A stretch of DNA of 64,000 bases from an uncultured Candidatus Nemicrothrix sp. (GCA_964504305.1 CAZDEB010000011.1:1753-65752); one strand, 5' to 3'. Positions 2,126-21,191 are shown, numbered from the stretch's first letter. Program-made: numbers and translations. The notes: generated from the sequence alone by a model not told the origin.

Positions 2126-2149
2126 GTCGATGATAGGGCCGTGTGGCGG

Positions 2150-2165
2150 GAGGCGGAGCCGCCTC
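2150..2165. promoter_or_regulatory. 16-bp near-perfect palindrome in the divergent NYN/hsdM intergenic region (possible operator)
   Basis: gaggcgg-ag-ccgcctc lies between the divergent starts at 2125 and 2232. No function can be assigned from sequence. Confidence 0.2.
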
Positions 2166-2231
2166 TTCCTCTGGATCAGGCGCAGCTCCGTGTAATGGAG
2201 CACAATGTCACGACGCTTGGCTACCAAGCGG

Positions 2232-3794: not shown

Positions 3795-4954
3795 AGATGG
3801 CTGCTCTTTCGCAAGTGTGTGAGATCACGATGGGACAGGCTCCGAAAGGTGACACATATAACGACATTGGCGAAGGTCTCCCGCTAATCGCTGGTGCTGG
3901 AGACTTTGGCGATCTCTACCCATCCCCGAAGAAGTTCACCACGGCGAAGGCGGTCCGAAAGAGCGAGCCAGGTGACGTCATTGTCGGGATCCGAGCGTCA
4001 ATCGGCGACAAGGTGCTCGCTGATGACGTTTATTGCCTCGGCCGGGGAGTGGCCGGTCTCCGTGCGGGACCTGGCCTTGACCAGCGGTACCTGTGGAACT
4101 GGGTGACTCATGCCGCACCGACGCTCGCAGCAAAGGGACGCGGTGCAACGTTCTTGCAGGTAAACAAGGCGGACGTCTCGGAGATGGAGATTCCGTTGCC
4201 GCCGATTGAGGAGCAGCGGCGGATTGCGGCAGTGCTCGATGCGGCCGATGCGCTCCGAGCCAAACGCCGCCAGGCCCTCGCCAAGCTCGACACCCTCACC
4301 CAAGCCATCTTCATCGACATGTTCGGCGACCCCGTGGCCGCAGCGACTCGGTTCGGCTGTCTTGAGATGGGGGAGATGGGCAGGATGACGAACGGCCACA
4401 ATTTCTCAGCCGAGGATCGTGGCGATGGAACCGCGGGCATACTCATGCTCGATGTCAAGAACATGTACACGGCGAACGCCCATCCTGACGTGGAGTCTGC
4501 ATATCGGATCTCTGCCGAAGTGCCCGACTCCAAGCAGCTCCAGCCTGGAGACCTCGTCTTTGTTAGGTCGTCGGTAAAGCGAGAAGGCGTTGCGTGGCCT
4601 GTGCACTTCACCGGGCACAGCGAACCAGTCGCACTCTGTGGTTTCTTGATCCGGTTACGTCTGCATACGGAGATGGCCCGGCTGTACACGCCGGAGTACC
4701 TTGTCCACTATCTGAGACAACCCTCAGTGCGGATGGCGGCAGTAGCGAGTGCGGGCCAAGTGGCAATCACAAATGTCAGCCAGAAGCGGCTAGGCCAGCT
4801 CCGAATTCCCAAAGCTCCAATGGCGACGCAGGTTCGATTCAGCGAGCGAATCTCAAAGATCTACTCCCTGCGGGAGTTCCCTGCCCGATCCTTGGAAGAG
4901 GCCAACAACCTGTTTGCTTCGCTTCAGCAGCGGGCGTTTCGGGGGGAGTTGTGA
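3791..4954 (+). CDS. hsdS: Type I R-M specificity subunit HsdS (two target-recognition domains)
   Basis: 387 aa. The central conserved spacer is [48 protein letters not shown] and the C-terminal conserved helix is ...[18 protein letters not shown] overlap with the hsdM stop. Confidence 0.85.
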
Positions 4955-7900
4955 GTTCGTCTCAGTTCTTGTTTCTCGAGGCTGAGTTTGGTGATCTGTT
5001 TGTCGTGGCGGAGTGGGCGGAGCGTCATGCGTTGTCGGATCCGGGGCCAGCGGTGATTTATGCCCGTAAGGCGCTGGAGTCCGGGGTGAAGTGGGTTTAC
5101 GCCCATGATCGTTCGTTGCCTGCGCCGTATGAGTCGAAGCTCAATGCGTATCTGAATGAGCCGGCGTTCAAAGCCCTGGCTGACGGCCGGGTCTCCAATG
5201 TGGCGAAGAAGGTTCAGTTGGCGGGCAATCGGGCGGTTCATGAGTCGAAACCGCCGACGAAGCTGGAAGCGGTCGAGGTAATCTCGGCGTTGTTCCAGGT
5301 GTGTTTCTGGCTGGCGTTCACCTATGGCCGGGCTGCCAAGCCTGATCCGGGGGTGAAGTTCGACCCGAAGCTGCTGGTGTCTGCGGGCCGGGCTGAAAAG
5401 GCGTCGTTGAAGGAGCGCCAAGAGCTGCAGGAGCAGCTTGAGCGGCAGGTTGAGGAGACTGAACTTGCCCGGCTGCGGGCGGCGGAGGCGTCGCGCACGA
5501 TCGCTGAGCTGGAAGCCGAGCACGCCGCGTTGTTGGCGGATGTGGCGGCGGCGAAGCGGGAGGCTGAGAAGATCCCGGTCGGGGTCCACGATTGGTCGGA
5601 GTGGGAGACCCGCCAGTTTAAGATCGATGCGATGCTGGCCGAAGCAGGCTGGACGCTGAGCGAGGAGCGTGACCGCGAGTTCGAGGTGCACGGGATGCCC
5701 TCGGATTCGGGTGTGGGTTACGCCGACTATGTGCTGTGGGGCGACGATGGCTTGCCGTTGGCGGTGGTTGAGGCCAAGAAGGCGATGGTGTCGCCTACGA
5801 CCGGACAGCAGCAGGCGAAGCTCTACGCGGATTGTCTAGAGAAGATGACCGGGCAGCGGCCCGTCATCTTCTACTCCAACGGCTACGAGCACTGGCTGTG
5901 GGACGACACCCGTTACCCGCCCCGGCCGGTGCAGGGGTTCTTGACCAAGGACGAGTTGGCGCTGTCGATCCAGCGGCGAACCTCCACGGTGTCGCCGGGG
6001 TCGCTCGACATCAACGACAAGGTCGTCGAGCGGTACTACCAGCATCGGGCGATCCGGGCGATCACCGAACATTTCGAGAACGACAAGCAACGCAAGGCGT
6101 TGTTGGTGATGGCTACCGGTGCTGGCAAGACCCGCACCGTCATCGCGTTGGTTGATTTGTTGATGAGGGCCAACCTGGTGAAACGGGTGTTGTTCTTGGC
6201 TGATCGCACTGCATTGGTGAAACAGGCGATCGGGGCGTTCAAGTCTCACTTGCCGGATTCGGCGCCGGTCAATCTGGTGACCGAAGGCAACGAGGACGGC
6301 CGGGTGTACGTGTCGACGTATCAGACGATGGTCGGCAAGATCGATGAGTACCGCAACGACGGCACCCGCCGTTTCGGGGTCGGGCATTTCGATCTGGTGG
6401 TGATCGACGAAGCTCACCGGTCGGTGTACCGCAAGTACCGCGGGATCTTCGAGTATTTCGATTCGTTGCTGGTCGGCTTGACCGCCACGCCGAGGGATGA
6501 AATCGGCCGTGACACCTACGGACTGTTTGATCTCGAGACCGGGGTGCCCACGGATGCCTACTCCCTTGATGAGGCGATCAAGGACGGTTTCTTGGTGCCG
6601 CCCCGTGGTGTGTCGGTGCCGCTCAAGTTCTTGCGAGAGGGGATCCGCTACGACGACCTTTCCGAGGACGAACAGGCCGACTGGGAGGGGCTTGATTGGG
6701 GAGAGGACGAGGATGGCCACGAACTCGACCCACCTGACGAGGTCGGCGCCGCTGCCCTCAACAAGTTCCTGTTCAACGAAGACACCGTGGACAAGGTCCT
6801 CGAACGGCTGATGGTTGACGGCATCAAGGTCGCCGGCGGCGACCGGCTCGGCAAGACCATCATCTTCGCCAAGAATCAGCGCCACGCCGAGTTCATCTAC
6901 CAGCGGTTCATCGCCAATTACCCGCATCTCGACAACGGCAATTTCGCCCGGGTGATCACCCACGACGTGAAATACGCGCAGAGCCTGATCGACGACTTCT
7001 CGATCAAAGACAAGGCACCCCACATAGCGATTTCAGTCGACATGCTCGACACCGGGATCGATGTGCCTGAATGCGCAAACTTGGTGTTCTTCAAGCTGGT
7101 GCGATCAAAGACCAAGTTCTGGCAGATGCTCGGCCGCGGCACCCGCCTGTGCCCCGACCTGTTCGGCCCCGGTGACGACAAGACCTGTTTCAATGTCTTC
7201 GACTTCTGCCAGAACCTCGAATACTTCAGCCAACCGCTCGTACCCGCAGACAAGGCGGGCTCAGCGCCGATCGGCGAACAGATCTTCAAAGCCCGTCTGG
7301 AGCTGATCCAGACATTCGACTCGATCCAGAACCACGGCAACGAGCGGGCCGAAATCGCCGGTTTGCTGCACGACGCGATCGCGTCGATGAACGAGAGCAA
7401 CTTTCTCGTACGTCCCCACCTGCAGTTGGTTGAGAAATTCCGCGATGCTGATGCATGGGAGTCGGTGTCGGTCGGCGATCTCGCCGCACTGGCCGACCGG
7501 GTCGCTGCGCTTCCCGCACAGCTCGAACCTGAGCCGGAAGAAACGAAGCGGTTCGACATGTTGCTGCTCAGCTCTCAGCTCGGGGTGCTGCGTGGTGAAC
7601 CATTCGAGCGTCAGCGTCGCAAGGTGATTGCCATCGCCGGCGCGTTGGATGACCAGCAGGCGATCCCGGCGATCAAACAGCAGCTCGAACTCATCATCGA
7701 CATCCAATCCGACGAATGGTGGGTGGACGTCAATTATCAGATGCTCGAAGACGTGCGAAAGAAGCTGCGTCTTCTGGTCCCGCTCATCGAACGGTCCAAG
7801 AAGAGCATCATCTACTCCGACTTCGAAGACCAGATCGGCACTGGCAAAGTGATCGATATACCCGGCACCAGCGGGGAAGCCGGCAGCACCGAGTTCGTTC

Positions 7901-8364
7901 AGTTCCGTAGGAAGGCCGAGCGCTTCCTCCAAGAGAACCTGGGTGAGGCGGCGATCGCCAAGGTCCGATCCGGTGCGCCGCTGACGCCCGACGACATCGC
8001 TGACCTTCAGCGGATCCTCGTCGCGGCGGGTATAGGCGACGAGGGTTCCTTCGCCGAAGCCAGCAAGAAGGCAGGCAACTTCGGTCTATTCATCCGATCG
8101 CTCGTTGGCCTCGATCGTGGCGCCGCCAAGGCCGCGTTCGCTGGTTTCCTCGACGAGAAACGCTACGGCCGCAACCAGATCGAGTTCGTCAACATGATCA
8201 TCGACGAACTCACCGACCGAGGCGTGGTTAAAGCCCGCCGAGTCTACGAGACGCCTTACATCGGTCTGGCCCCCGAAGGCCCCGAGAAGATCTTCGTGAA
8301 AGCGGACCTTGACCGGCTATTCGAGACGATCAAGTCGCTGTCTGCTGTTGGGTCGGAATCGTGA
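4951..8364 (+). CDS. hsdR: Type I restriction endonuclease subunit HsdR (EcoEI-like) with N-terminal DUF4145 domain and coiled coil
   Basis: GTG at 4951 overlaps the hsdS stop (GTGA). DUF4145-like N-terminus (..AGNRAVHESKPP..), nuclease core GYADYVLWGDDGLPLAVVEAKK, and SF2 motifs LVMATGAGKTRT, VVIDEAHRS and GLTATP. Long C-terminal EcoEI-R-type tail. The 4594-4950 part of the track ORF lies inside hsdS and was trimmed. Confidence 0.85.
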   Translation: MSSSQFLFLEAEFGDLFVVAEWAERHALSDPGPAVIYARKALESGVKWVYAHDRSLPAPYESKLNAYLNEPAFKALADGRVSNVAKKVQLAGNRAVHESKPPTKLEAVEVISALFQVCFWLAFTYGRAAKPDPGVKFDPKLLVSAGRAEKASLKERQELQEQLERQVEETELARLRAAEASRTIAELEAEHAALLADVAAAKREAEKIPVGVHDWSEWETRQFKIDAMLAEAGWTLSEERDREFEVHGMPSDSGVGYADYVLWGDDGLPLAVVEAKKAMVSPTTGQQQAKLYADCLEKMTGQRPVIFYSNGYEHWLWDDTRYPPRPVQGFLTKDELALSIQRRTSTVSPGSLDINDKVVERYYQHRAIRAITEHFENDKQRKALLVMATGAGKTRTVIALVDLLMRANLVKRVLFLADRTALVKQAIGAFKSHLPDSAPVNLVTEGNEDGRVYVSTYQTMVGKIDEYRNDGTRRFGVGHFDLVVIDEAHRSVYRKYRGIFEYFDSLLVGLTATPRDEIGRDTYGLFDLETGVPTDAYSLDEAIKDGFLVPPRGVSVPLKFLREGIRYDDLSEDEQADWEGLDWGEDEDGHELDPPDEVGAAALNKFLFNEDTVDKVLERLMVDGIKVAGGDRLGKTIIFAKNQRHAEFIYQRFIANYPHLDNGNFARVITHDVKYAQSLIDDFSIKDKAPHIAISVDMLDTGIDVPECANLVFFKLVRSKTKFWQMLGRGTRLCPDLFGPGDDKTCFNVFDFCQNLEYFSQPLVPADKAGSAPIGEQIFKARLELIQTFDSIQNHGNERAEIAGLLHDAIASMNESNFLVRPHLQLVEKFRDADAWESVSVGDLAALADRVAALPAQLEPEPEETKRFDMLLLSSQLGVLRGEPFERQRRKVIAIAGALDDQQAIPAIKQQLELIIDIQSDEWWVDVNYQMLEDVRKKLRLLVPLIERSKKSIIYSDFEDQIGTGKVIDIPGTSGEAGSTEFVQFRRKAERFLQENLGEAAIAKVRSGAPLTPDDIADLQRILVAAGIGDEGSFAEASKKAGNFGLFIRSLVGLDRGAAKAAFAGFLDEKRYGRNQIEFVNMIIDELTDRGVVKARRVYETPYIGLAPEGPEKIFVKADLDRLFETIKSLSAVGSES

Positions 8365-9248
8365 CTGTCTCGCAGAAGCCGCTTGGTACGTCGATCCGCA
8401 TTTTCCTTGCCGATGGTGAGGCGGACGGAGTGTGGGTGGTTGAGAAGAGCAACTGGACTGGCAAGGCGCTGATGGCCCCTCGCACGCGTTACCGCGATCT
8501 TCGCTCCCGGCCTGATCTTGACGGCCCGGGGGTGTACGTGCTCGTCGGCCCGACCGATTCTGGGTACCCGCCCCAGCGGGTCTACATCGGCGAGACGGAC
8601 GATCTCCCGGGCCGACTCGACAGCCACAACAAGAACAAGGACTTCTGGAACCGCGCCGTCGTTTTCACCAGCAAAGACGCGAACCTCAACAAGGCGCACA
8701 TCCGATACCTCGAACACAGACTCATCGGCTTGGCAACGGCAGCAAAGCGAGCCGAGATCGAGAACGGCAACCTCGGGTCGATGCCGCCGCTCTCCGAAGC
8801 CGACACTGCGGAGGCAGAGTCGTTCCTGGCCGAGATGCTGCTGATCTACCCCGTCCTCGGCATCCACCTGTTCAAGAAGCCGGACGAACAGCCATCGAGT
8901 TCTGTTCGTCTCGGCCTAGCGGGAAAAGGCGCGAATGCTGAGGGCACCGAGACCGCCGACGGTTTTGTCGTCCACGCCGGATCTCTGGCCCGTCTCGACG
9001 AAGTCCCATCGATACATGCCTACGCAATAGAGATGCGCAAAGCCATGAAGGAGAGGGGGTTGCTGGTCGAGGAGAACGGCCATCTTCGCTTCACCGATGA
9101 CCACCTGTTCGGTTCGCCGTCGACCGCGGCGACGGTGGTGCTCGGACGAAGTGCCAACGGAAGGGTTGAGTGGAAGACGGCCGCTGGTCAGACCCTCAAG
9201 CAACTCCAGACAGACCTGACCGGCGAGGTCAGCCCAGAGGATGGATGA
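8361..9248 (+). CDS. GIY-YIG nuclease-family protein with DUF4357-like C-terminal domain
   Basis: GVYVLVG...RVYIGETDDLPGRLDSH...IRYLEHRLI gives the GIY / YIG / Arg / Glu pattern. The C-terminal part (FVVHAGS...LFGSPSTAATVVLGRSANGRVEWK) resembles DUF4357. The GTG start overlaps the hsdR stop (GTGA). Confidence 0.7.
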   Translation: MTVSQKPLGTSIRIFLADGEADGVWVVEKSNWTGKALMAPRTRYRDLRSRPDLDGPGVYVLVGPTDSGYPPQRVYIGETDDLPGRLDSHNKNKDFWNRAVVFTSKDANLNKAHIRYLEHRLIGLATAAKRAEIENGNLGSMPPLSEADTAEAESFLAEMLLIYPVLGIHLFKKPDEQPSSSVRLGLAGKGANAEGTETADGFVVHAGSLARLDEVPSIHAYAIEMRKAMKERGLLVEENGHLRFTDDHLFGSPSTAATVVLGRSANGRVEWKTAAGQTLKQLQTDLTGEVSPEDG

Positions 9249-10489
9249 GCCGGGGGATGGATGAGTATGCGGCGGCTTCGTCGTTCGGCTGGCTTGATTT
9301 CGATTCTGCGGCGTCGGAGCGGGTCAGCACGCTGCTGAGAGCGCTCGAACAACCGGGAACGCTCGACCCGCTCGGCTTCTCGGTGATTAGGGATCCCATC
9401 TCGGGGATGCTCGCCCCTGGTACTTCCACCATCCAGACACGGCTGCGCTATTTCATGTTTCTGCCATGGATCTTCCAGGGGATCGACCGCGACAGGGTCG
9501 CGCCGTCTCGGTTCGCCCGCCGGCTACGTGACGACGAGGCGAAGCTCATCGAGTGTCTCCGTCACCTTGGCCCCAGCCATGGCGTGCAGGGCTACTCGGC
9601 GGGTCGGAATCTCCAGCGGATGCCCAGCGAGGCCTATTGGAGCGGGCTTCTCTCATGGGGGATCCGACGAGTTGACGTTTCTATAGCGGACTACGGCCGT
9701 CGGCTCGGAGCGATGGGCCGACTGTCCACCCAGCGAGATGACGACGGCAACCCAACCGAGCGTGCCGTGCAAACCTGGGCGTCGATCCCCGACCCGCCGG
9801 ATCGTTTCCTCTCGGAGGAGATTGCGTTCGATCTGACACAGGCTGAGGCGACTCTGATCATTGATCAGATCCGACGACATCACCCATCATCGTTACTTGC
9901 CTCAGGGTGTAGAAATCCGGCCGCGACCGCGCAGGCACGGATGCCATGGGACATCGACCGGTCTTTGTTGAGCGGCGAGCTGCAATCTGTCATCCGTCAC
10001 GCGCGGGCGGCATCGGAGCTCACGATTGGGCCTCAACTTCTCTACAACCTCCTCCTCGCTGAACGGGCAAGGGCTGAACTCGGATGGGACACATCAGAGC
10101 TCCGCGACGACGTGCATGCTCAGCTCGACGACTGGGCGGTGCTTGTCGAAAACCGCCACATCGGCCTTCAGTCCTGGGCGTCAGACATCGGGGAGTTCTG
10201 GGCGATCCTCGACGCTCGGGCGCCGGTCAATAAGTGGAGTCGTGACTTCATCACTGAGATCATTGTGCGGGCGGCGCAAGACCCGCGCGGGTTCGTTCGC
10301 GACAAAGTCGTGCATCAGCTCATCCGAGATCGCGAGATTCGCCTGAAATCGAATCGGGCCCGGCTTGGGCCTCTGAGCGCGTTGGAGAACTGGAATCAGC
10401 AGCCCTTCGGCGGTCAACTGGTCTACCGCTGGCCGATCTGTCGGACCTACCTGGAGGACCTGGCCGTAGCGCTCGGGTCGGCGGGTTGA
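9245..10489 (+). CDS. conserved hypothetical protein, DUF6361-like (family assignment from memory)
   Basis: 414 aa from the ATG at 9245 (ATGA overlap with the upstream stop). The N-terminal block SSFGWLDFDSAASERV...PGTSTIQTRLRYFMFLPWIF resembles the family usually annotated DUF6361. No catalytic motif recognised. Confidence 0.55.
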   Translation: MSRGMDEYAAASSFGWLDFDSAASERVSTLLRALEQPGTLDPLGFSVIRDPISGMLAPGTSTIQTRLRYFMFLPWIFQGIDRDRVAPSRFARRLRDDEAKLIECLRHLGPSHGVQGYSAGRNLQRMPSEAYWSGLLSWGIRRVDVSIADYGRRLGAMGRLSTQRDDDGNPTERAVQTWASIPDPPDRFLSEEIAFDLTQAEATLIIDQIRRHHPSSLLASGCRNPAATAQARMPWDIDRSLLSGELQSVIRHARAASELTIGPQLLYNLLLAERARAELGWDTSELRDDVHAQLDDWAVLVENRHIGLQSWASDIGEFWAILDARAPVNKWSRDFITEIIVRAAQDPRGFVRDKVVHQLIRDREIRLKSNRARLGPLSALENWNQQPFGGQLVYRWPICRTYLEDLAVALGSAG

Positions 10490-12291
10490 TGCTCCAGCCA
10501 TCCAACCGCCTCACTCTCATAGACGCCATGCGCCCACCGCCCGGCTACGGCTTCGGCGAGGCAATGGCGGTGACATTCACGCTCGACCTGCGGGCCTTGC
10601 TCGCAGCGCCCGCTGCATTTGTGTTCGGTCAGGCCGGCGCCGACGTCCAATCTGATGACCAAACAGCGGAACCGATCGAGCTGCTTCATGCGATCCGATC
10701 CCACTCTGATCACATCACGGTGTTCTGCCAAGCCGGCGAGATCGGGCTACCACCATCGAAACGAGTCTTCGCCTTCCTCGAGCAGTCGGTCGTGCCCGTC
10801 ACCGCACCCCGCGGCGGAGTCGTCCATCCGAAGATCTGGGTGCTGCGCTACGAGTCCATCAGCGACCCGGGGGTTTCGACGCTCCGGGTTCTGTGCTCCA
10901 GCCGCAATCTCACCTTCGACGCAAGCTGGGACACTTTGCTGCGGCTCGATCAAACAGACTCACCGTCGGGGTGTGATCTGACACCGTTGGTCGCGTTGTT
11001 CGACGGTCTCACCGAGCGCGCAACATCGCCGATCAGCGAGGCCCACGCCGCACGGGTAAACCGCTTGGGCATGATGCTCCAGGCGGCCAAGTTCGCCCGG
11101 CCACCCGGCACGGATGACCTGCGTTTCCATGTGATGGGGTTCGACGATCCAGAACCTCTGTTGCCCTCTGGCGCCGACCGGTCGCTGATCATTTCGCCTT
11201 TCGTGAGCAACGGCTTCTTCACCCGGATACACAGCGGCGGTGTCAGTGAGCTGGTGAGCCGTCCTGAGAGTCTCGATCAGCTCGAGCCTGCGGTGCGTGA
11301 AGCGATCGGCTCCATTTACGCGTTCGATGATGGCAGCAACCCCGACTTGACCGATGGGGAGGATTCTCTTTCGTTTGGTGACCCCGGCCGTCCACTGAGA
11401 GGGCTCCACGCCAAGGTCTTCGCATTCGAGACCGGCAACCGCGCGGCTGTGTTCGTTGGTTCGGCGAATGCAACCGGGGCGGCGTTTCGGAACAACGTCG
11501 AGGTGCTCGTGGAGATGACCGGCCCCAAGACCACCCTCGGGATCGATCGACTGTGCGGCGGAACCGACGACGAGGTCGGTCTACGGGCACTGTTCCAGAC
11601 ATACATGGGCGGATCAGTCGCGGTCGATCCGGACGACTCGACGCTCGACGGGGCGAGACGCCGGCTGGCACAGCTGGTGCTCGACGGTTTCGTGGCCGAG
11701 ACGACCAGTGGTTGGGAGGTCACCTACAAGTCGGACTCGCTCGTCGAACTACCAGACGGCATCACGGCGACCTGCTGGCCGCTGTCCAACGCCGGGAACC
11801 TCCAGCCAGTGGATTCCGGCAAGTCCCTATGTGTCACATTCCAGACCACGCTCGAATCGATGAGTGGTTTCCTGGCGATGAAACTGACCCGTGACGAAAC
11901 GGAGGCCACAACCGGGTTTGTGCTGCCGGTGACGTTGCACGGGGTTCCTGCTGATCGCGACCGCATGCTTCTCAAGGCGCTTGTCGGCAACGCCGAGCGG
12001 TTCTTCCGCTACCTCCTGTCGCTTCTCGACGAAAACCCCGCCGGCATGGAATTGGTCGACGCGATCGATCAGATGACGAGCGACACCGGCCACTCCGATC
12101 GACAAAGCGGCTTTTACCTTCCGGTGTTGGAGAATCTTCTGCGGAGCCTGCGCCGCGACCCGGCGAAGCTCATCTCCGTGCATCCGTTGGTGATGGACCT
12201 CCACGGCGACGACGCTCTGCCCGAGGGTTTTATGGAACTCTGGGCTCCAATCCATCAGATTGCCGTCGAAGCGATGAGGGCCGAGACGTGA
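10489..12291 (+). CDS. phospholipase D (HKD) superfamily protein with two HKD-like motifs, putative nuclease
   Basis: First motif is VVHPKIWVLRY...LCSSRNLT. Second motif is GLHAKVFAFETGNRAAVFVGSANATGAAF. The ATG at 10489 shares one nt with the upstream TGA (10487-10489); a TTG at 10486 is also possible. Confidence 0.75.
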   Translation: MLQPSNRLTLIDAMRPPPGYGFGEAMAVTFTLDLRALLAAPAAFVFGQAGADVQSDDQTAEPIELLHAIRSHSDHITVFCQAGEIGLPPSKRVFAFLEQSVVPVTAPRGGVVHPKIWVLRYESISDPGVSTLRVLCSSRNLTFDASWDTLLRLDQTDSPSGCDLTPLVALFDGLTERATSPISEAHAARVNRLGMMLQAAKFARPPGTDDLRFHVMGFDDPEPLLPSGADRSLIISPFVSNGFFTRIHSGGVSELVSRPESLDQLEPAVREAIGSIYAFDDGSNPDLTDGEDSLSFGDPGRPLRGLHAKVFAFETGNRAAVFVGSANATGAAFRNNVEVLVEMTGPKTTLGIDRLCGGTDDEVGLRALFQTYMGGSVAVDPDDSTLDGARRRLAQLVLDGFVAETTSGWEVTYKSDSLVELPDGITATCWPLSNAGNLQPVDSGKSLCVTFQTTLESMSGFLAMKLTRDETEATTGFVLPVTLHGVPADRDRMLLKALVGNAERFFRYLLSLLDENPAGMELVDAIDQMTSDTGHSDRQSGFYLPVLENLLRSLRRDPAKLISVHPLVMDLHGDDALPEGFMELWAPIHQIAVEAMRAET

Positions 12292-15200
12292 ACCCGCCAA
12301 TCGACATGGAGGAGGTTCTGTCGGGCCTGAAGGACTTCCAACGATGCAGTGCGGAGTGGGTGTTCGAAAGAATGTTCGATCAACAAGACGCCGCGGTGCG
12401 TTTCCTGGTCGCCGACGAAGTCGGGCTGGGAAAAACCCACGTTGCCAAAGGTGTGATTGCCCGGGTCATCGATTATCTCGAGCGCACCGGCGACGAGCGT
12501 CACGACATCGTCTACGTCTGCTCCAACGGTGCCATCGCCCGTCAGAACCTGAGGAAGCTCGCACCCAACGGTGTTCAGCCGATCGACAGCGTCGAACGTC
12601 TAACGATGCTTCCCCTCGCGCAACTCAATGAAGGGGGCTCTGGCACTCACGGCATGAACCTGTTGGCTATCACCCCGGGCACATCGCTTGCCTTCGGGAG
12701 GAGCACCGGCCGGTTCGAGGAGCGAGTGCTCGCCTACACGTTCTTACGGGAGGTCTGGGGCCCCGAAGCGTTCCCCGAACGCGCCCGCTGGATCTTTTGG
12801 GAAGGGGTCAACAAAGAAAAAGGGGATCGGAGGCTACGAGATCACTCCAGACGACAGAGGGACAAGATCCAAGCCCATGTTGCCGCCTTTCGCCGGACGC
12901 TGAAGGAGATCGATCGGCAGCGTCGAGAACTCGGCGAACCAACTAGTCGAATCATGTTCAACCGTCTCGTCAAGGGACTGAAATGGCAGCGGAACTTTCC
13001 CAAAGAACTGGGCGCTTCTAGAAGAGAGTTCATCGGCGAGATTCGCCGGGTGATGGCGATGGTCGGAATCGCCATGCTCGAACCCGACCTTGTGATACTC
13101 GACGAGTTTCAACGGTTCAAGAACCTGCTCGATCCCGACGCCGAAGACTGGTCCGCCGATCTCGCCCGCAGGCTCTTCACCCACCTTGATAGCGAAACTG
13201 GCCGGCCCACCCGAACGCTGTTGTTGTCGGCGACGCCGTATCGCATGTTCACGACCTCCGATGAGACCGACGGCGACCACTACGCCGACTTCGTCGACAC
13301 CTGTTCGTTCCTCTTCGACGACAAAGCGAAGGTAGTCAAACTCGAGAACCAGTTTCGTCTGCTTCGGTTGGCGCTCACCGACGGCACCGGCGATTCGGCA
13401 GCCGAGACAGTCTGTAAGAGCATCGAGTCGCTGCTGCGTACCGTGATGGTTCGAACCGAACGCCTTGCAGCCACGCCAGATCGAGACGGCATGTTGAGCG
13501 AGACCGACACCACAGTGCCGGTCAAAGAAATCGATCTGCGTTCCTACATGCGGCTCAGCGACCTCGCCGAATCGATCGGCCAGCACCAACCAACCGAGTT
13601 CTGGAAATCAAGCCCGTTCCTGTTCAACTTCATGGAGAAGTACCAACTCAAGGAAGCCCTCGAACAAGCCATCATCGGCGGCGATCTCCATGATTCCGAA
13701 GCGCTCGAACCCGGGCCTGGATTGCTCAAATGGGATGAGATCGAACGGTACGAACACCTCGACCCCCAGAACGGCAGGCTGCGCTGGCTCATCGATGATC
13801 TCGAACAGCATCACGCGTTCGATCTGCTTTGGATGCCTCCTTCGCTGCCCTACTACCGCGCCGACACTGTGTACGAGCAAGAGAGCTCGATGAAGTTCAC
13901 CAAGCGTCTGCTCTTCTCGGGGTGGGCGGTCGTGCCCAAAGTTGTGTCGACCGTCGTCAGCTACGAAGCCGAACGTCACGCCTTCGCTCTGGGACGCCGT
14001 CACCAGTACTCCGACGACTACAGCAAACGCGGGGGACGAAGACTCGACTTCCGGCTCGAAAATCGGCGACCCGCCGCAATGACGGCTTTCCTGTTCATCT
14101 GGCCCAGCCCTACGCTCGCGGCACTCGGAGACCCGAGGCCGTCACCAAGTGAAACAGCAACAGCGGAGTCGGTGCTGACACGAGCACGTGACCGTCTCAG
14201 GGAACCTCTTCGCGAGATCACTTCTGGAGCGCCGACAGATGGACCCGTCGATCAACGCTGGTATTGGGCCGCGCCCCTCTTGCTCGACCGCATCCATCAT
14301 CCCAGAGTGATCAACGACTGGTTCGTCACGAGCGGCTCGGAGTTGACCTGGGGCGAAGACCTGGACGGCTCAGGATTCGAGCGGCATGCACGTGAGGCAC
14401 GGGATCTCCTCCGAGACAAGGTGGAGGCGCTTGGCCGGTGCCCTGAAGATCTGTTGGAGGTTCTCGCCGAGGCGGCGGTGGGAGGGCCCGCTCAATGTGC
14501 ATTGAGGGCGCTGTCAACGGTGACCGGCGTCGAACTCGGTGATCCCGAATTGCAACCGGGGGCAGCGAGGGTGTCGTGGGGTTTTCGTAGTTTCTTCAAC
14601 GCCCCCGACGTCACGGCGATAGTCGTCGGCCAATCCAGTGTTGATGATGGGAGCACCGGCAGCCGGACCCCATTCTGGCGAGAAGCGATACGGCACAGCA
14701 TCGGCGGCAACCTGCAATCGGTTCTCGACGAACACGTTCACATCCTTCGAGACTGGCTCGGGTTCATCGACATTGAACATTCCGGTCGCCGTACCGAGGC
14801 AGCTCAGGCCATCGCCAACCGGTTGACCGGCTCGTTGCAGGTACGCACATCTACGTTTCGTGTCGACCTGCCAAGCGGAAGCTCGAACCACTACAAACTC
14901 GACTATCGACGGATGCGCAGCAGATTCGCGGTGGCGTTCGGCAACCAAAAACTGGAGACAGGTGGCCAAGCGCGGGTGGAGTCGGTTTCTGCAGCATTCA
15001 ACTCGCCGTTCTGGCCGTTCGTTCTCACGACGACATCGATCGGTCAAGAAGGCCTCGACTTCCACCTCTGGTGCCACGCAGTAGTCCACTGGAACCTGCC
15101 GAGCAATCCGGTGGATCTCGAGCAGCGCGAAGGCCGAGTTCACAGGTTCAAGGGCCACGCTGTCCGAAAAAACATCGCCGCGACAATCGGACCCGACGCA

Positions 15201-15539
15201 AGCTCATCTGACTCAGCGGACATTTGGGAGCAGATGTTCAACACGGCTGCCGACGGCCGAAGTCCCTCAGAGTCAGAGATGATGCCCTACTGGGTCTTCA
15301 ACAAGGGGCCGGCCAAGATAGAGCGTCACGTGCCGGTGCTCCCCTTCAGCCGAGACTCTGCCGTGCTGCCGCGCCTACGGAAATCGCTGGCCACCTATCG
15401 CCTTGCATTCGGGCAACCACGACAAGAAGAGCTGTTGGAGTTCCTCGGTGAGCACCACGGTCCCGACGAGCTGCAAGCCCTGAGCGCCAAACTTCGTATC
15501 GACCTGTCGCCCCCCGACGGGTTCCGTTCCTCCGTGTGA
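12288..15539 (+). CDS. SNF2-like superfamily-2 helicase-related protein (1083 aa)
   Basis: FLVADEVGLGKTHVAKG (motif I), LVILDEFQRFKNLL (motif II, SNF2-like DExx..KN), LLLSATPYR (III), TTSIGQEGLDFH (V) and LEQREGRVHRFKGH (VI). A long insertion lies between the two RecA lobes. The GTG start overlaps the PLD stop (GTGA). Confidence 0.8.
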   Translation: MNPPIDMEEVLSGLKDFQRCSAEWVFERMFDQQDAAVRFLVADEVGLGKTHVAKGVIARVIDYLERTGDERHDIVYVCSNGAIARQNLRKLAPNGVQPIDSVERLTMLPLAQLNEGGSGTHGMNLLAITPGTSLAFGRSTGRFEERVLAYTFLREVWGPEAFPERARWIFWEGVNKEKGDRRLRDHSRRQRDKIQAHVAAFRRTLKEIDRQRRELGEPTSRIMFNRLVKGLKWQRNFPKELGASRREFIGEIRRVMAMVGIAMLEPDLVILDEFQRFKNLLDPDAEDWSADLARRLFTHLDSETGRPTRTLLLSATPYRMFTTSDETDGDHYADFVDTCSFLFDDKAKVVKLENQFRLLRLALTDGTGDSAAETVCKSIESLLRTVMVRTERLAATPDRDGMLSETDTTVPVKEIDLRSYMRLSDLAESIGQHQPTEFWKSSPFLFNFMEKYQLKEALEQAIIGGDLHDSEALEPGPGLLKWDEIERYEHLDPQNGRLRWLIDDLEQHHAFDLLWMPPSLPYYRADTVYEQESSMKFTKRLLFSGWAVVPKVVSTVVSYEAERHAFALGRRHQYSDDYSKRGGRRLDFRLENRRPAAMTAFLFIWPSPTLAALGDPRPSPSETATAESVLTRARDRLREPLREITSGAPTDGPVDQRWYWAAPLLLDRIHHPRVINDWFVTSGSELTWGEDLDGSGFERHAREARDLLRDKVEALGRCPEDLLEVLAEAAVGGPAQCALRALSTVTGVELGDPELQPGAARVSWGFRSFFNAPDVTAIVVGQSSVDDGSTGSRTPFWREAIRHSIGGNLQSVLDEHVHILRDWLGFIDIEHSGRRTEAAQAIANRLTGSLQVRTSTFRVDLPSGSSNHYKLDYRRMRSRFAVAFGNQKLETGGQARVESVSAAFNSPFWPFVLTTTSIGQEGLDFHLWCHAVVHWNLPSNPVDLEQREGRVHRFKGHAVRKNIAATIGPDASSSDSADIWEQMFNTAADGRSPSESEMMPYWVFNKGPAKIERHVPVLPFSRDSAVLPRLRKSLATYRLAFGQPRQEELLEFLGEHHGPDELQALSAKLRIDLSPPDGFRSSV

Positions 15540-15566: not shown

Positions 15567-16793
15567 ATGGCGTTTCGCAGGCGTAACCGAGATCAGAAAT
15601 CGGACAACGTTGAGATCGTGGCTAACGGGCAGGGGCTCATGGTTCACGGTTCGTCTGGAGCTGTTTCCACTTTTGCGGCCGGGTTGGCCAACGCGGTGGG
15701 CGAGTCGTCGGGGCAGGCCCGTCGAATGGCAGCTGACGGGCTGGCGGTGGCTGGTGGTCTGGGTGCCCAGATAAAGACCCACCGCGAATACTTCGAGTTC
15801 TCGCCGCGCACGGCCGAGCTGCTGCGCAAGCACGGAGCCATACCGACAGGAGACGGCCATTTCCACACGTTCGTGCGGTCGCCGGACGGGCGCATCGCCG
15901 GCAATCTCGAATGGAATAACGTTGACCTCAACCCGGAGCAGGCGCTCGCCTTCCAGACCGCAACCGCGCAGCTCGCTCTGCGTGCCGCCACCAAGGATCT
16001 GGCTGCCGCCATCGAACGGGTCGAGGGCAAGGTCGACAAGCTCATATTGCTCACTCGTGCCGAACGGCTCGGCGCGGCGTTGGGTGACCGTGTCACCCTG
16101 CAGGCTCTCGCCGAGCACTCACGAGAACGCGGCACCATGTCCATGACCGATTGGTCGACCGTCGACAGTCTTGGGGCGCTGATCCCGCGTGATATCGCGG
16201 CTCTGTGTGCTTATGTCCAGCAAGAGATCAACGAGCTCGATAGCAAAGCGTTCGTGCGAACCAGGTCCTCTGAGCTCAAGAAGCTGACGGATGATCTTCT
16301 GAGCGAGTCACTCGAATTGCTGCTGGTGGTCGAGCAGAACTACATGCTGTGGCAGGAGATTCGGATAGCGCAGGTCGCCACCAACGAGCCCGCGGCACTC
16401 GCGGCGACCGTCGCGGATGCGCGGGCCCAACTCGACGCGGTCGCCATGGAAGACCAGTGGCTCATCGATTCGATTCAAACCGCAGCGGCAGAGCTGTTGG
16501 AACCGACCGGGATGGAGGGATTCTTGCCGCTGGAACGGCGGCGGCTTCGTCAGCGTGGCGAGGAGCTCAATGAGTTAATCGGGTGGTTCGCCGGGCAACG
16601 CCAGCTCGATGCCGACGAACTCGTAGCCAGATATCCGACGCTGACGGAGTCCCTCTCCAAGGTCGGCGATGTCGCTGCCGAGCGCGCTAAGGATGTGGGC
16701 GGCGCCATCCAGTCCGTCGTTAGACGCAACCAGGGGCACAGGGAATCTTCACCGGGGTCCGATGAGCCCGATGACGACCGCGATGATTCCTGA
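15567..16793 (+). CDS. hypothetical protein (408 aa, helical/coiled-coil-looking, acidic C-terminal tail)
   Basis: Long ORF on the operon strand, 27 nt after the helicase stop, preceded by a gggg purine run. No motif recognised. Ends ...SPGSDEPDDDRDDS. Confidence 0.55.
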   Translation: MAFRRRNRDQKSDNVEIVANGQGLMVHGSSGAVSTFAAGLANAVGESSGQARRMAADGLAVAGGLGAQIKTHREYFEFSPRTAELLRKHGAIPTGDGHFHTFVRSPDGRIAGNLEWNNVDLNPEQALAFQTATAQLALRAATKDLAAAIERVEGKVDKLILLTRAERLGAALGDRVTLQALAEHSRERGTMSMTDWSTVDSLGALIPRDIAALCAYVQQEINELDSKAFVRTRSSELKKLTDDLLSESLELLLVVEQNYMLWQEIRIAQVATNEPAALAATVADARAQLDAVAMEDQWLIDSIQTAAAELLEPTGMEGFLPLERRRLRQRGEELNELIGWFAGQRQLDADELVARYPTLTESLSKVGDVAAERAKDVGGAIQSVVRRNQGHRESSPGSDEPDDDRDDS

Positions 16794-17107
16794 ACTCGAC
16801 GTGGCCCGAGTCCGCCGATGGGCGGACGGTCGCACGCCAGCTGAGTACCTCCCCGAGATGCGCCTAGAGGTTGATGAGACACCCCGCAGCCTCACAGTGT
16901 CTCGATTGTCGGCCCCCGTGGAGCGACTCGATCGGCCCGGAGTGGATCCGAACGCCGGTCGCACGCCTGCGGTATGTGATGAAACGCCGCGAGTGGACGC
17001 TCTACCGGCCCGACCGCAACAGCAGGTTCCACGTCTACGAGCGGACCAAACGCCGAAGTGCGGCCACGCCCACCACATCCAACACCACCGCCACGGCGGA
17101 CCCATAG
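16783..17107 (+). pseudogene. DUF3024-family gene disrupted by a 1-nt frameshift near 16893-16897
   Basis: Frame A reads MIPELDVARVRRWADGRTPAEYLPEMRLEVDETPRSLTV. Frame B continues LDCRPPWSDSIGPEWIRTPVARLRYVMKRREWTLYRPDRNSRFHVYE. Joined, they match the usual DUF3024 layout (recalled from memory). Removing one nt in ctcacagtg-t-ctcgattgt restores a single frame. Confidence 0.65.
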
Positions 17108-17163
17108 ACCCCACGCCGCCCAGGGCGTCCGAAGAGAACCACGGTGCCGCTGTTTGCGAAAAG

Positions 17164-17247
17164 TGCGGACGGGGGGACTTGAACCCCCACACCCTTCCGG
17201 GCACCAGGACCTAAACCTGGCGTGTCTGCCAATTCCACCACGTCCGC
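17164..17247 (-). tRNA. tRNA-Leu (anticodon UAG), class II with long variable arm
   Basis: Folded by hand. Acceptor GCGGACG/CGTCCGC plus discriminator A, 3-bp D stem GTG/CAC, anticodon stem CCAGG/CCTGG with loop TTTAGGT, variable arm GCCC-GGAA-GGGT, and T arm GGGGG-TTCAAGT-CCCCC. CCA is not encoded. Confidence 0.9.
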
Positions 17248-21129: not shown

Positions 21130-21191
21130 GGGGGCGACCGTAGCCGGATTGCTCGCCTGCTGATGTGAGACTTGGCGCCAGACCTGAGAAG

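What the first reader, a model, noticed from the sequence alone, without database searches (positions are those of the whole stretch)
9245..15539. DUF6361-like / double-HKD PLD / SNF2-like helicase triad: candidate uncharacterised nuclease-helicase defence module
Three consecutive genes are joined by 1-4 nt stop/start overlaps.
- A 414-aa protein with no catalytic motif (N-terminal SSFGWLDFDS...PGTSTIQTRLRYFMFLPW).
- A 600-aa protein with two HKD-type motifs (HPKIWVLRY...SSRNLT and HAKVFAFE...GSANAT), the layout of PLD-family nucleases.
- A 1083-aa SF2 ATPase whose motifs are SNF2-like (DEVGLGKT, DEFQRFKN, LLLSATP, QREGRVHR).

PLD nuclease plus SNF2/SF2 helicase pairings occur in known anti-phage systems: DISARM DrmC/DrmD, the Dpd restriction module, and Mokosh. 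This locus lacks their signature partners. I see no DUF1998/DrmA-B, no dedicated methylase of its own, and no DpdA/B. It carries instead a distinct third protein.

The triad sits in an integrase/tRNA-flanked island fused to a Type I R-M operon, which is typical defence-island context. It does not match any named system I know. I cannot exclude that it is already listed as a candidate in PADLOC/DefenseFinder-type catalogues.
Basis: partly seen in the sequence, partly recalled or inferred. Interest (0 to 1): 0.85.

Follow-up and report, generated by a model that had tools for sequence, protein, structure and literature searches.

The report
Azaca (ZacABC) anti-phage defence operon
The three overlapping genes are a textbook copy of Azaca, a bacterial anti-phage system named in 2022 and already listed in the defence-system catalogues, so the locus is real and probably active but it is not a new kind of system.

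Summary
Three co-directional genes (414/410, 600 and 1083/1077 aa) lie at 9245-15539, joined by 1-4 nt overlaps, and every quoted motif is present.

The interpretation "matches no named system" does not hold. All three proteins match the PADLOC models ZacA, ZacB and ZacC over their full lengths (E = 6e-100, 8e-144, and 0 at 1041 bits). ZacA is Pfam DUF6361. This is Azaca, attributed in the literature to Millman et al. 2022.

A 2025 preprint reports that Bacillus massilioglaciei ZacABC protects more than 10^6-fold against T4. It cleaves T4 dsDNA in vitro only when all three proteins are present, and needs both the PLD active site and the ZacC Walker A motif.

In 87 other genome loci, every locus with enough downstream DNA keeps the order zacA-zacB-zacC. 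These span Actinomycetota, Chloroflexota, Proteobacteria, Planctomycetota, Bacillota and archaea. The flanking genes vary.

The copy here looks functional. Catalytic residues sit at family-invariant columns, and dN/dS is 0.11-0.18 against a sister lineage. DISARM, Dpd and Mokosh membership fail.

ZacA has no detectable fold relative, and its role remains open.

Side findings:
- The adjacent Type I hsdM carries a real TAG nonsense mutation.
- An unannotated 408-aa island gene recurs next to Azaca.

Novelty: already known. Interest: low.

The parts
9245..10489 (+). zacA: DUF6361 protein (414 aa from the ATG at 9245; 410 aa if it starts at the ATG at 9257). It is the third, non-enzymatic subunit of Azaca.
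   Evidence: Pfam PF19888 DUF6361, E = 3.3e-54, covering 3-387 of 388 profile positions. PADLOC ZacA, E = 5.8e-100, covering 2-394 of 396. 2506 cluster representatives at E <= 1e-3. The AF2 model is all-alpha (pLDDT 75, pTM 0.75) with no fold match in PDB or BFVD; the best E is about 0.9.
9416..9469 (+). Most conserved ZacA block, PGTSTIQTRLRYFMFLPW (residues 58-75).
   Evidence: P58, Y69 and W75 are invariant, and G59, T60, S61, T62, T65, R66, F72 and P74 are at least 90% conserved, across 30 representatives at 30-46% identity.
10489..12291 (+). zacB: PLD-superfamily nuclease (600 aa). It has two HxK...N lobes, a beta-sandwich at about residues 398-484, and a C-terminal helical region.
   Evidence: PADLOC ZacB, E = 7.7e-144, covering 1-581 of 586. 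Pfam PLDc_2 scores only 22.6 bits, below the cutoff of 27. Foldseek of the AF2 model (pLDDT 72.8) hits human PLD4 8v08 at 5e-6, Tdp1 3sq7 at 1e-5, R.NgoAVII 4rct at 5e-4 and SauUSI 7clg at 6e-3.
10825..10914 (+). ZacB HKD-type motif 1: H113-P-K115 ... S-R139-N140-L-T142.
   Evidence: H113, P114, K115, R139, N140 and T142 are invariant in the 32-sequence alignment. In the 77-sequence alignment, H113, P114, K115, R139, N140 and T142 are at least 95% conserved.
11407..11475 (+). ZacB HKD-type motif 2: H307-A-K309 ... G324-S-A-N327-A-T329.
   Evidence: Invariant columns. Conserved across 77 loci. The profile aligns this block to the PLD motif of SauUSI and NucT.
12288..15539 (+). zacC: SF2 (SNF2/RapA-like) ATPase (1083 aa from the GTG at 12288; 1077 aa if it starts at the ATG at 12306).
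   Evidence: PADLOC ZacC, E = 0, 1041 bits, covering 5-1016 of 1019. Pfam Helicase_C matches residues 899-954. The family profile hits only RapA in the PDB, at motifs V-VI, E = 6e-6.
12414..12437 (+). ZacC motif I / Walker A, DEVGLGKT (residues 43-50).
   Evidence: All eight residues are invariant in 17 sequences at 36-64% identity. The Walker A mutant of the B. massilioglaciei ZacC abolishes DNA cleavage.
13101..13124 (+). ZacC motif II / Walker B, DEFQRFKN (residues 272-279).
   Evidence: D272 to F277 are invariant.
15123..15146 (+). ZacC motif VI, QREGRVHR (residues 946-953).
   Evidence: Q946 to R950 and R953 are invariant.

Best explanation
The triad is a canonical Azaca system (zacA-zacB-zacC), a three-gene anti-phage defence operon already named and catalogued.

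The mechanism I commit to has these steps:
1. ZacA, ZacB and ZacC assemble into one complex. This is reported for the Bacillus massilioglaciei homologue and inferred here.
2. ZacC is an SF2/SNF2-like ATPase. It uses ATP to load on or translocate along dsDNA and licenses the nuclease. The Walker A requirement is reported for the homologue; translocation is inferred from the family.
3. ZacB is a single-chain, two-lobed PLD-superfamily (HxK...N) phosphodiesterase. It degrades the invading dsDNA through a phosphohistidine intermediate. The fold and motifs are shown here; the chemistry follows from established PLD-nuclease knowledge.
4. Self versus non-self is decided by a property of the phage DNA, not by host methylation, because the system has no methyltransferase. 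The best current candidate is hypermodified bases such as glucosyl-hmC. That would make Azaca a multi-subunit, ATP-dependent, Type IV-like restriction complex, analogous to single-chain SauUSI. This step is inferred and is the least secure.
5. ZacA (DUF6361, all-alpha, no known fold relative) is a required structural or specificity subunit without catalytic residues. Its requirement is reported for the homologue; its role is inferred.

In this genome the operon is intact, under purifying selection, and probably co-transcribed with an upstream Type I R-M/PDC-S14 block.

Confidence in the identity is about 0.97. Confidence in the modification-dependent step is about 0.5. The single confidence value given (0.9) refers to the identity plus the nuclease/ATPase/complex core of the mechanism.
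For: Identity:
- PADLOC ZacA, ZacB and ZacC match full-length at E = 5.8e-100, 7.7e-144 and 0. Pfam gives DUF6361 at 3.3e-54.
- The literature defines Azaca as helicase + PLD nuclease + DUF6361 and attributes it to Millman et al. 2022. It is reported as enriched in Actinobacteria, which fits the Acidimicrobiia-like relatives found here.

Synteny:
- In 87 loci found through ZacA, every locus with enough downstream DNA has ZacB and then ZacC in the same order and on the same strand. All 10 exceptions are contig-end truncations.
- There is no conserved fourth gene among the neighbours.

Intactness:
- ZacB H113/K115/N140 and H307/K309/N327 lie at invariant family columns. So do ZacC Walker A, DEFQ, SAT and motif VI.
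- dN/dS is 0.11, 0.18 and 0.12 against lineage L088.
- The identical locus was recovered at 99.7-100% identity in 8 contigs from at least six public samples (ERZ27251151, ERZ27251152, JGI 3300009481, 3300009703, 3300011013, SRR5211068).

Fold:
- The ZacB model matches two-lobed PLD enzymes that act on nucleic acid (PLD4, Tdp1) and the PLD restriction enzymes R.NgoAVII and SauUSI.

Mechanism, from bioRxiv 10.1101/2025.07.10.664194:
- BmAzaca gives more than 10^6-fold protection against T4.
- It degrades T4 dsDNA preferentially.
- Only the full ZacABC set cleaves.
- Nuclease active-site and ZacC Walker A mutants are dead.
- Glucosyl-hmC is proposed as the cue.
Against: - No experiment exists for this orthologue. 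Identity to Bacillota members of the family is only about 32-35% for ZacA. I could not retrieve the validated B. massilioglaciei sequences for a direct comparison.
- The modification-dependent step rests on one preprint's substrate preference. In the passages of the preprint that mention Azaca there is no comparison of glc-hmC, hmC and C versions of T4 DNA; I did not read the rest of the paper.
- Mutating conserved ZacA residues had no effect in vitro, so ZacA's role is unexplained.
- Mass photometry could not define the Azaca complex stoichiometry.
- Pfam PLDc_2 is below its gathering threshold (22.6 versus 27). Foldseek TM-scores are low (0.28/0.39) because the multi-domain model is only moderately confident.
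- The natural phages of this uncultured host, and whether they modify their DNA, are unknown.
Confidence: 0.9

Rival explanations
1. It is Azaca, but it does not read DNA modification. The helicase senses something else, such as DNA ends, damage, replication or recombination intermediates, or a phage protein. It then releases a nuclease that degrades DNA indiscriminately, as Hachiman HamAB does, giving abortive infection.
For: A survey preprint explicitly hypothesises Hachiman-like behaviour for other nuclease-helicase systems including Azaca. The Hachiman precedent is described in the abstracts listed (PMC12278908). Azaca has no recognisable modified-base reader domain (SRA, YTH, EVE, Mrr_N and similar): Pfam finds only DUF6361, weak PLDc_2 and Helicase_C. 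ZacA shows no fold similarity to any known reader.
Against: BmAzaca showed a clear preference for T4 dsDNA over other substrates in vitro, and a narrow T-even-centred defence range in vivo. A damage or end sensor would be expected to act broadly, as Hachiman does. Unlike Hachiman, the Azaca Walker A motif is required for cleavage in vitro.
Confidence: 0.3
2. One reading: a new, unnamed PLD-nuclease/SNF2-helicase defence system distinct from everything catalogued.
For: NCBIfam has no model that reaches its cutoff for any of the three proteins. Most public copies are annotated as hypothetical, DUF6361 family or phospholipase D family protein. A reader without defence-specific HMMs would therefore see no name.
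Against: Full-length, very strong matches to the three Azaca models in PADLOC-DB v2.0.0 of 2023. Azaca's published composition is exactly DUF6361 + PLD + helicase.
Confidence: 0.02
3. It is a divergent DISARM, Dpd or Mokosh module that has lost its partner genes.
For: Weak local hits of ZacB to DrmC models (E = 1e-4 to 8e-3), and of the ZacC C-terminal helicase motif to DrmD, DpdE and BrxH models.
Against: The hits cover only 40-90 residues around the HKD motif or helicase motifs V-VI. They lie far below the NCBIfam cutoffs: 22.9 versus 133, 49.4 versus 610, and 57.3 versus 500. No DrmA/DrmB/DUF1998, DpdA/B or Mko hit was found among the ORFs of 1-17 kb. The triad is self-contained in more than 70 genomes.
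Confidence: 0.01
4. Composite system. Here Azaca works as one functional unit with the upstream Type I R-M and the PDC-S14 (GIY-YIG/DUF4357) gene, as a seven-gene, translationally coupled operon. For example, Type I R-M would act on unmodified DNA and Azaca on hypermodified DNA, with shared regulation.
For: 4-nt stop/start overlaps link hsdM-hsdS-hsdR-PDC-S14-zacA. No promoter-like or terminator-like signal above chance lies between them. The same arrangement is kept in a sister lineage at 82% nucleotide identity (L088).
Against: Among 87 Azaca loci, Type I R-M or PDC-S14 neighbours are rare and never in this arrangement. Only L071 has a PDC-S14 homologue, about 6.4 kb upstream. L108 has a near-identical Type I R-M (HsdR 74%, HsdM 83% identity) followed by the orf408 homologue, with no homologue of Azaca or PDC-S14 detected in the locus and only about 600 nt between them. 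This suggests cassette insertion rather than co-evolution. hsdM is a nonsense pseudogene here while zacABC stay intact, which argues the two are functionally independent.
Confidence: 0.08
5. The locus is a decaying remnant and no longer functional in this population.
For: Two neighbouring genes are damaged. hsdM has an in-frame TAG. The DUF3024 gene appears frameshifted.
Against: zacA, zacB and zacC are full-length with all invariant residues retained. dN/dS is 0.11-0.18. There are at most 18 SNPs, and no indel inside the triad (9245-15539), across the independent assemblies; the single gap, in L098, lies upstream in hsdM near 2425.
Confidence: 0.07

Closest known systems
Azaca (ZacA/ZacB/ZacC), attributed to Millman et al. 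2022; biochemistry of the Bacillus massilioglaciei system in bioRxiv 10.1101/2025.07.10.664194
   Same: The same three families, in the same order and on the same strand: DUF6361 protein, double-HxK PLD nuclease, SF2 ATPase. All three PADLOC models match full-length. No methyltransferase. Defence-island context.
   Different: This is an uncultured Acidimicrobiia-type, high-GC orthologue. Its nearest genome relatives are 49-57% identical (ZacA), mostly in sponge-symbiont MAGs. Bacillota members are about 32-35% identical. It is embedded behind a Type I R-M/PDC-S14 block by overlapping stop/start codons. It is untested experimentally.
SauUSI-type ATP-dependent Type IV restriction enzymes (PDB 7clg)
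   Same: A PLD-family nuclease combined with an SF2 ATPase and a third specificity element. It acts on modified (5mC/5hmC) foreign DNA without a cognate methylase (my knowledge of SauUSI). The ZacB profile and model hit the SauUSI PLD domain (E = 0.04 by sequence; Foldseek 5.9e-3, prob 1.00). This is the best 'works like' analogue if Azaca reads T4 hypermodification.
   Different: SauUSI is a single polypeptide with one HKD motif per chain that dimerises. ZacB carries two HxK lobes in one chain, and the ATPase and third component are separate proteins. No sequence-level family membership.
DISARM (DrmC PLD + DrmD SNF2 helicase, with DrmA/DrmB and a methylase)
   Same: It pairs a PLD-family protein with an SNF2-like ATPase in a defence operon. 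There are weak local HMM hits.
   Different: No DrmA, DrmB/DUF1998 or DrmMI/MII. The hits lie far below cutoffs. DISARM is methylation-based, and DrmC is dispensable there (my knowledge). Azaca has ZacA instead.
Mokosh (MkoA/MkoB or MkoC)
   Same: A PLD nuclease plus a helicase, discovered in the same screen.
   Different: The Mokosh helicase is an SF1, Upf1-like COG1112 RNA helicase, and Mokosh II cleaves ssDNA only. ZacC is SF2 and Azaca cleaves dsDNA. No Mko HMM hit for any of the three proteins.
Hachiman (HamAB) and other nuclease-NTPase systems
   Same: A nuclease effector that needs its SF2 helicase partner in a complex.
   Different: The Hachiman nuclease is a DUF1837/PD-(D/E)xK enzyme. 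Its helicase ATPase motifs are not needed for cleavage in vitro, and it is broad-spectrum. Azaca needs Walker A, is narrow-spectrum and has a third subunit.

Membership tests
Azaca (ZacABC) | ZacA: a DUF6361-family protein of about 400 aa | tested here: met
   Pfam PF19888, E = 3.3e-54, 184.8 bits against a cutoff of 25, covering 3-387 of 388. PADLOC ZacA, E = 5.8e-100, covering 2-394 of 396.
Azaca (ZacABC) | ZacB: a PLD-family nuclease with HKD-type active-site motifs | tested here: met
   PADLOC ZacB, E = 7.7e-144, covering 1-581 of 586. Two HxK...N motifs sit at invariant columns. Foldseek hits PLD4, Tdp1 and R.NgoAVII at 5e-6 to 5e-4. Caveat: Pfam PLDc_2 alone is below its threshold.
Azaca (ZacABC) | ZacC: an SF2 helicase/ATPase of about 1000-1100 aa with Walker A and B motifs | tested here: met
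   PADLOC ZacC, 1041 bits, covering 5-1016 of 1019. Motifs I, II, III and VI are invariant. Pfam Helicase_C matches.
Azaca (ZacABC) | All three genes adjacent, on the same strand, in the order A-B-C | tested here: met
   In the window they span 9245-15539 with overlapping junctions. The same order is kept in all testable loci of 87.
Azaca (ZacABC) | Protects against phage; the ZacABC complex degrades phage dsDNA in an ATPase- and HKD-dependent way | not testable with these tools
   Reported only for the B. massilioglaciei system and another tested operon. Expression and phage challenge of this orthologue are needed.
DISARM | DrmA helicase plus DrmB (DUF1998), with DrmC/DrmD and a DrmM methylase | tested here: not met
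   ZacB scores 22.9 bits against DISARM_DrmC_I (cutoff 133). ZacC scores 49.4 bits against DISARM_DrmD (cutoff 610). No DUF1998 or DrmB hit in any ORF of 1-17 kb. The only DrmA hit is a 47-residue helicase motif match.
Dpd (7-deazaguanine DNA modification/restriction) | DpdA transglycosylase and DpdB, with the DpdE helicase among others | tested here: not met
   ZacC scores 57.3 bits against DpdE (cutoff 500), with local matches only. No DpdA/B hit among the island ORFs.
Mokosh | An SF1 COG1112 (Upf1-like) RNA helicase paired or fused with a PLD nuclease | tested here: not met
   No MkoA/B/C model hits any of the three proteins at E <= 0.01. ZacC has SF2 motifs and its only solved relative is RapA.
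SauUSI-like Type IV restriction enzymes | A single polypeptide with an N-terminal PLD nuclease, an SF2 helicase and a C-terminal target-recognition domain | tested here: not met
   The functions are split over three proteins. Only the PLD motif region aligns (E = 0.04; Foldseek 5.9e-3 over 136 columns). It is a functional analogue, not a member.

The most novel reading that the evidence does not exclude
The most novel reading not excluded concerns the locus rather than the triad, and comes in two forms. (a) The overlapping seven-gene array hsdM*-hsdS-hsdR-PDC-S14-zacABC, conserved in two lineages, could be a functionally integrated layered system. (b) The unannotated 408-aa gene at 15567-16793 could be a new Azaca-associated accessory or a stand-alone defence gene. 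It has no Pfam, PADLOC or NCBIfam match and only 38 homologues, all Actinomycetota. It abuts Azaca in three independent contexts (the window, L102/L103 and L124) and abuts a near-identical Type I R-M in L108. Separately, ZacA's fold has no relative in PDB or BFVD, so its role, possibly a new kind of DNA-modification reader or scaffold, is still open for the whole Azaca family.
Probability: 0.1. Interest if true: 0.45.

Novelty: already known. Interest (0 to 1): 0.15.

Why it matters
For discovery it matters little. The finding rediscovers Azaca, which PADLOC and DefenseFinder already detect. It should therefore be removed from a list of candidate new systems.

It has modest value as data:
- It adds a well-supported, apparently functional Azaca orthologue from an uncultured high-GC Acidimicrobiia-type lineage. 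The closest relatives are spread across several phyla of sponge-associated MAGs, which suggests horizontal spread within that community.
- It shows that Azaca is strictly a three-gene unit with variable neighbours.
- It documents that ZacA (DUF6361) has no detectable structural relative. That is the main open question for the family.

Azaca's self/non-self rule is still unproven, so diverse orthologues like this one are useful material for testing whether modified-DNA recognition is general.

Tried and rejected
1. A search for att-type direct repeats between the tRNA-Leu and the integrase end found only three short two-copy matches. These look like chance, so the island borders are not defined inside the window.
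2. The promoter/terminator scan of 1-17.5 kb found counts at or below shuffle expectation. It is uninformative for a high-GC actinobacterial-type genome.
3. PDB sequence searches found no hits for ZacA (profile) or ZacB (single sequence). The ZacB profile gave only sub-threshold PLD hits. ZacC hit only RapA at motifs V-VI.
4. Foldseek of the ZacA model against PDB and BFVD found nothing below E of about 0.9. No functional lead came from the fold.
5. PHROGs found no phage family for ZacA or ZacB.
6. The main text of the bioRxiv version of Millman et al. does not contain the words Azaca or Zac; the names are probably only in figures. Attribution therefore rests on secondary citations and on the PADLOC model names.
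7. I tested whether Type I R-M or PDC-S14 is a conserved partner of Azaca and rejected it.
8. I tested whether orf408 is a conserved fourth Azaca gene and rejected it as a core component. It is absent from all 87 ZacA-seeded loci. Its homologues mostly sit near tRNAs or integrases without Azaca.
9. I could not obtain the validated B. massilioglaciei Azaca sequences for a direct pairwise comparison.

Full report
**Observation**

The three + strand ORFs exist as described. They are 9245-10489 (414 aa), 10489-12291 (600 aa from the ATG; the mechanical ORF list starts one codon earlier at a TTG) and 12288-15539 (1083 aa, GTG).

The junctions read from the sequence are:
- ATGA at 9245-9248, between the upstream gene and zacA.
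- TGATG at 10487-10491.
- GTGA at 12288-12291.

Public gene calls on identical DNA use either 9245 or 9257 for zacA, and either 12288 or 12306 for zacC. Two of the overlaps therefore depend on the choice of start codon.

**Identity**

Against PADLOC-DB the three proteins match ZacA (E = 5.8e-100, profile 2-394 of 396), ZacB (7.7e-144, 1-581 of 586) and ZacC (E = 0, 1041 bits, 5-1016 of 1019).

Pfam gives DUF6361 for the first protein (3.3e-54). It gives a sub-threshold PLDc_2 hit for the second and Helicase_C for the third. NCBIfam has no model for them. Its DrmC, DrmD and DpdE models hit only locally and far below their cutoffs.

ZacABC is the Azaca system:
- PMC10952713 lists Azaca under PLD-domain systems and attributes it to Millman et al. 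2022.
- A survey preprint describes it as helicase + PLD nuclease + DUF6361.
- PMC10482375 reports it as enriched in Actinobacteria.

**What is known about how it works**

The source is Ragucci et al., bioRxiv 10.1101/2025.07.10.664194. They report:
- Azaca gives more than 10^6-fold protection against T4 and has a narrow, T-even-centred range.
- Purified B. massilioglaciei Azaca preferentially degrades T4 dsDNA.
- Only the full ZacABC set cleaves; single or pairwise subunits do not.
- Nuclease active-site and ZacC Walker A mutants are inactive.
- Mutating conserved ZacA residues changed neither complex formation nor cleavage.
- The complex stoichiometry could not be resolved.

The authors suggest glucosyl-hydroxymethylcytosine as the cue. 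I adopt this as the most likely model: an ATP-dependent, multi-subunit, Type IV-like restriction complex. The modification-reading step is inferred, at about 0.5 probability.

**Evidence generated here**

*Family size.* ZacA has 2506 50%-identity cluster representatives at E <= 1e-3. At least 586 loci occur in species-representative genomes.

*Synteny.* In 87 fetched loci, every locus with enough downstream DNA carries ZacB and then ZacC, in the same order and on the same strand. The ten exceptions are all contig-end truncations. Hosts include Actinomycetota, Chloroflexota, Gamma- and other Proteobacteria, Planctomycetota, Acidobacteriota, Bacillota and Methanotrichaceae archaea.

*Nearest relatives.* These are 49-57% identical in ZacA. 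They are mostly sponge-associated MAGs (Poriferisodalis, Aldehydirespirator, APA/RHO bins). Some are assigned to Dehalococcoidia, Pseudomonadales and Gammaproteobacteria, which suggests horizontal transfer in that habitat.

*Neighbours.* The neighbours vary. A crude scan of 108 flanking ORFs from 62 loci hit many different defence families: PDC-S01, AriA, MkoA, NsnB, mad3, BnzB, Type I REase, AbiEii, PD-T4-6 and PDC-S41. It also hit HNH/DUF222 genes, transposases and housekeeping genes. There is no recurrent fourth gene.

*Catalytic residues.* These are intact and lie at invariant columns:
- ZacB H113/K115/N140 and H307/K309/N327.
- ZacC DEVGLGKT (43-50), DEFQ (272-275), SAT (314-316) and QREGRVHR (946-953).

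*Selection.* dN/dS against the sister lineage L088 is 0.11, 0.18 and 0.12 for zacA, zacB and zacC.

*ZacB structure.* An AlphaFold2 model (pLDDT 72.8) shows two alpha/beta lobes, a beta-sandwich and a helical tail. It matches human PLD4 (5e-6), yeast Tdp1 (1e-5), PPK1 (2e-5), R.NgoAVII (5e-4) and the PLD domain of SauUSI (6e-3). This confirms a single-chain, two-lobed PLD phosphodiesterase.

*ZacC.* Its only solved sequence relative is RapA, a bacterial Swi2/Snf2 ATPase, at motifs V-VI. This gives modest support to the label "SNF2-like".

*ZacA structure.* The model (pLDDT 75, pTM 0.75) is all-alpha. It has no match in PDB or BFVD and no PDB sequence relative. Its role stays open.

**Context**

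Upstream, all on the + strand and joined by 4-nt overlaps, lie:
- hsdM (2205-3794)
- hsdS (3791-4954)
- hsdR (4951-8364, with an N-terminal DUF4145)
- a PDC-S14 gene (8361-9248; GIY-YIG + DUF4357)

The same array occurs in a sister lineage at 82% nucleotide identity (L088). It does not occur in other Azaca loci.

A related MAG (L108) has a near-identical Type I R-M (HsdM 83%, HsdR 74%) followed by the orf408 homologue. No homologue of PDC-S14 or Azaca was detected there, and only about 600 nt separate the two genes. PDC-S14 plus zacABC therefore look like an inserted cassette.

Downstream lie orf408 (15567-16793), a DUF3024 remnant and tRNA-Leu (17163-17247, -), followed by core genes (clpP, rpe). 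A tyrosine integrase (43-1068, -) and an NYN-domain gene (1415-2347, -) lie at the left end. No att repeat was found inside the window.

**Side findings**

*hsdM nonsense mutation.* hsdM carries an in-frame TAG at 2715-2717 (GDV*EYML), where L088 has TAT (Tyr). The same TAG is present in two independent assemblies, L098 and L099. It is therefore a real nonsense mutation, and the Type I R-M is probably inactive in this population while Azaca is intact.

*Left-edge heterogeneity.* Several public contigs end inside hsdM. One (L098) has a different left flank (rph-rdgB-eamA) from window position about 2258 leftwards. This indicates strain heterogeneity at the island's left edge.

*orf408.* It has no family assignment and only 38 homologues. 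These sit near tRNAs or integrases and are three times adjacent to Azaca.

**Verdict**

The functional guess is right. The novelty claim is wrong, because this is Azaca, already named, catalogued and partly reconstituted. Rating: already known; interest 0.15.

The residual open questions belong to the Azaca family as a whole: ZacA's role and the self/non-self cue.

Noticed in passing
window 2205-3794 (TAG at 2715-2717): The Type I hsdM is split by an in-frame TAG (GDV*EYML). The HsdM_N domain lies in 2205-2717 and N6_Mtase in 2724-3794, in the same frame. The sister lineage L088 has TAT (Tyr) and an intact 514-aa HsdM. The same TAG is present in independent assemblies L098 and L099. It is therefore a real nonsense mutation, and the R-M system is probably inactive.
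   Followed up: yes
window ~2258 and 2768-2879; loci L089-L092, L098: Four public contigs of the same locus end inside hsdM. L098 diverges from the window left of about 2258. It has rph-rdgB-eamA there instead of the NYN gene and integrase, and it carries an extra 1-nt insertion in hsdM. This indicates strain-level rearrangement or deletion at the island's left edge, or a chimeric join in one of the assemblies.
   Followed up: partly
window 15567-16793 (+): A 408-aa ORF lies 27 nt downstream of zacC. It has an SD-like GGGGGA before its ATG and no Pfam, PADLOC or NCBIfam hit. Only 38 homologues exist, all Actinomycetota-type. Homologues abut Azaca in L102/L103 (convergent, next to McrBC and NERD genes) and in L124 (Kribbella, just upstream of zacA). 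One abuts a near-identical Type I R-M without Azaca in L108. Others sit beside tRNA genes or integrases. It is probably island cargo and possibly a defence or accessory gene.
   Followed up: partly
window 8361-9248 (+): A PDC-S14 candidate defence gene (GIY-YIG + DUF4357/RAMA; PADLOC E = 1.7e-102; phrog_12629 E = 4e-72) is wedged between hsdR and zacA, with 4-nt overlaps on both sides.
   Followed up: partly
window 16790-17107 (+): A DUF3024 gene is called as a 77-aa product in public assemblies. Its expected N-terminal part (IPELDVARVRRW...) reads in a different frame, which suggests a frameshifted remnant next to the tRNA-Leu.
   Followed up: partly
window 43-1068 (-) and 1415-2347 (-): A tyrosine integrase (Phage_integrase + SAM-like N domain) and an NYN-domain protein (phrog_7929, E = 8e-49) lie at the left end of the island. 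The NYN ORF as listed overlaps the hsdM start by about 140 nt, so its true start is probably further in.
   Followed up: no
loci L018, L021, L024 versus L009-L039: Azaca copies 53% identical (ZacA) to the window's occur in MAGs labelled Dehalococcoidia, Pseudomonadales and Gammaproteobacteria, alongside many sponge-associated Acidimicrobiia. This suggests recent cross-phylum transfer within sponge microbiomes, or mis-binning.
   Followed up: no
window 19807-23876: Outside the island lie a patatin-like phospholipase (19807-21129, -) and a 903-aa adenylate/guanylate cyclase-STAND NTPase fusion (21165-23876, +). These are domain combinations sometimes seen in defence or signalling proteins. They were not examined.
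   Followed up: no
L088 2239-3174: The sister lineage has an extra 311-aa gene with no Pfam hit between hsdM and hsdS, and a very different HsdS (30% identity). This is typical specificity-subunit turnover.
   Followed up: no
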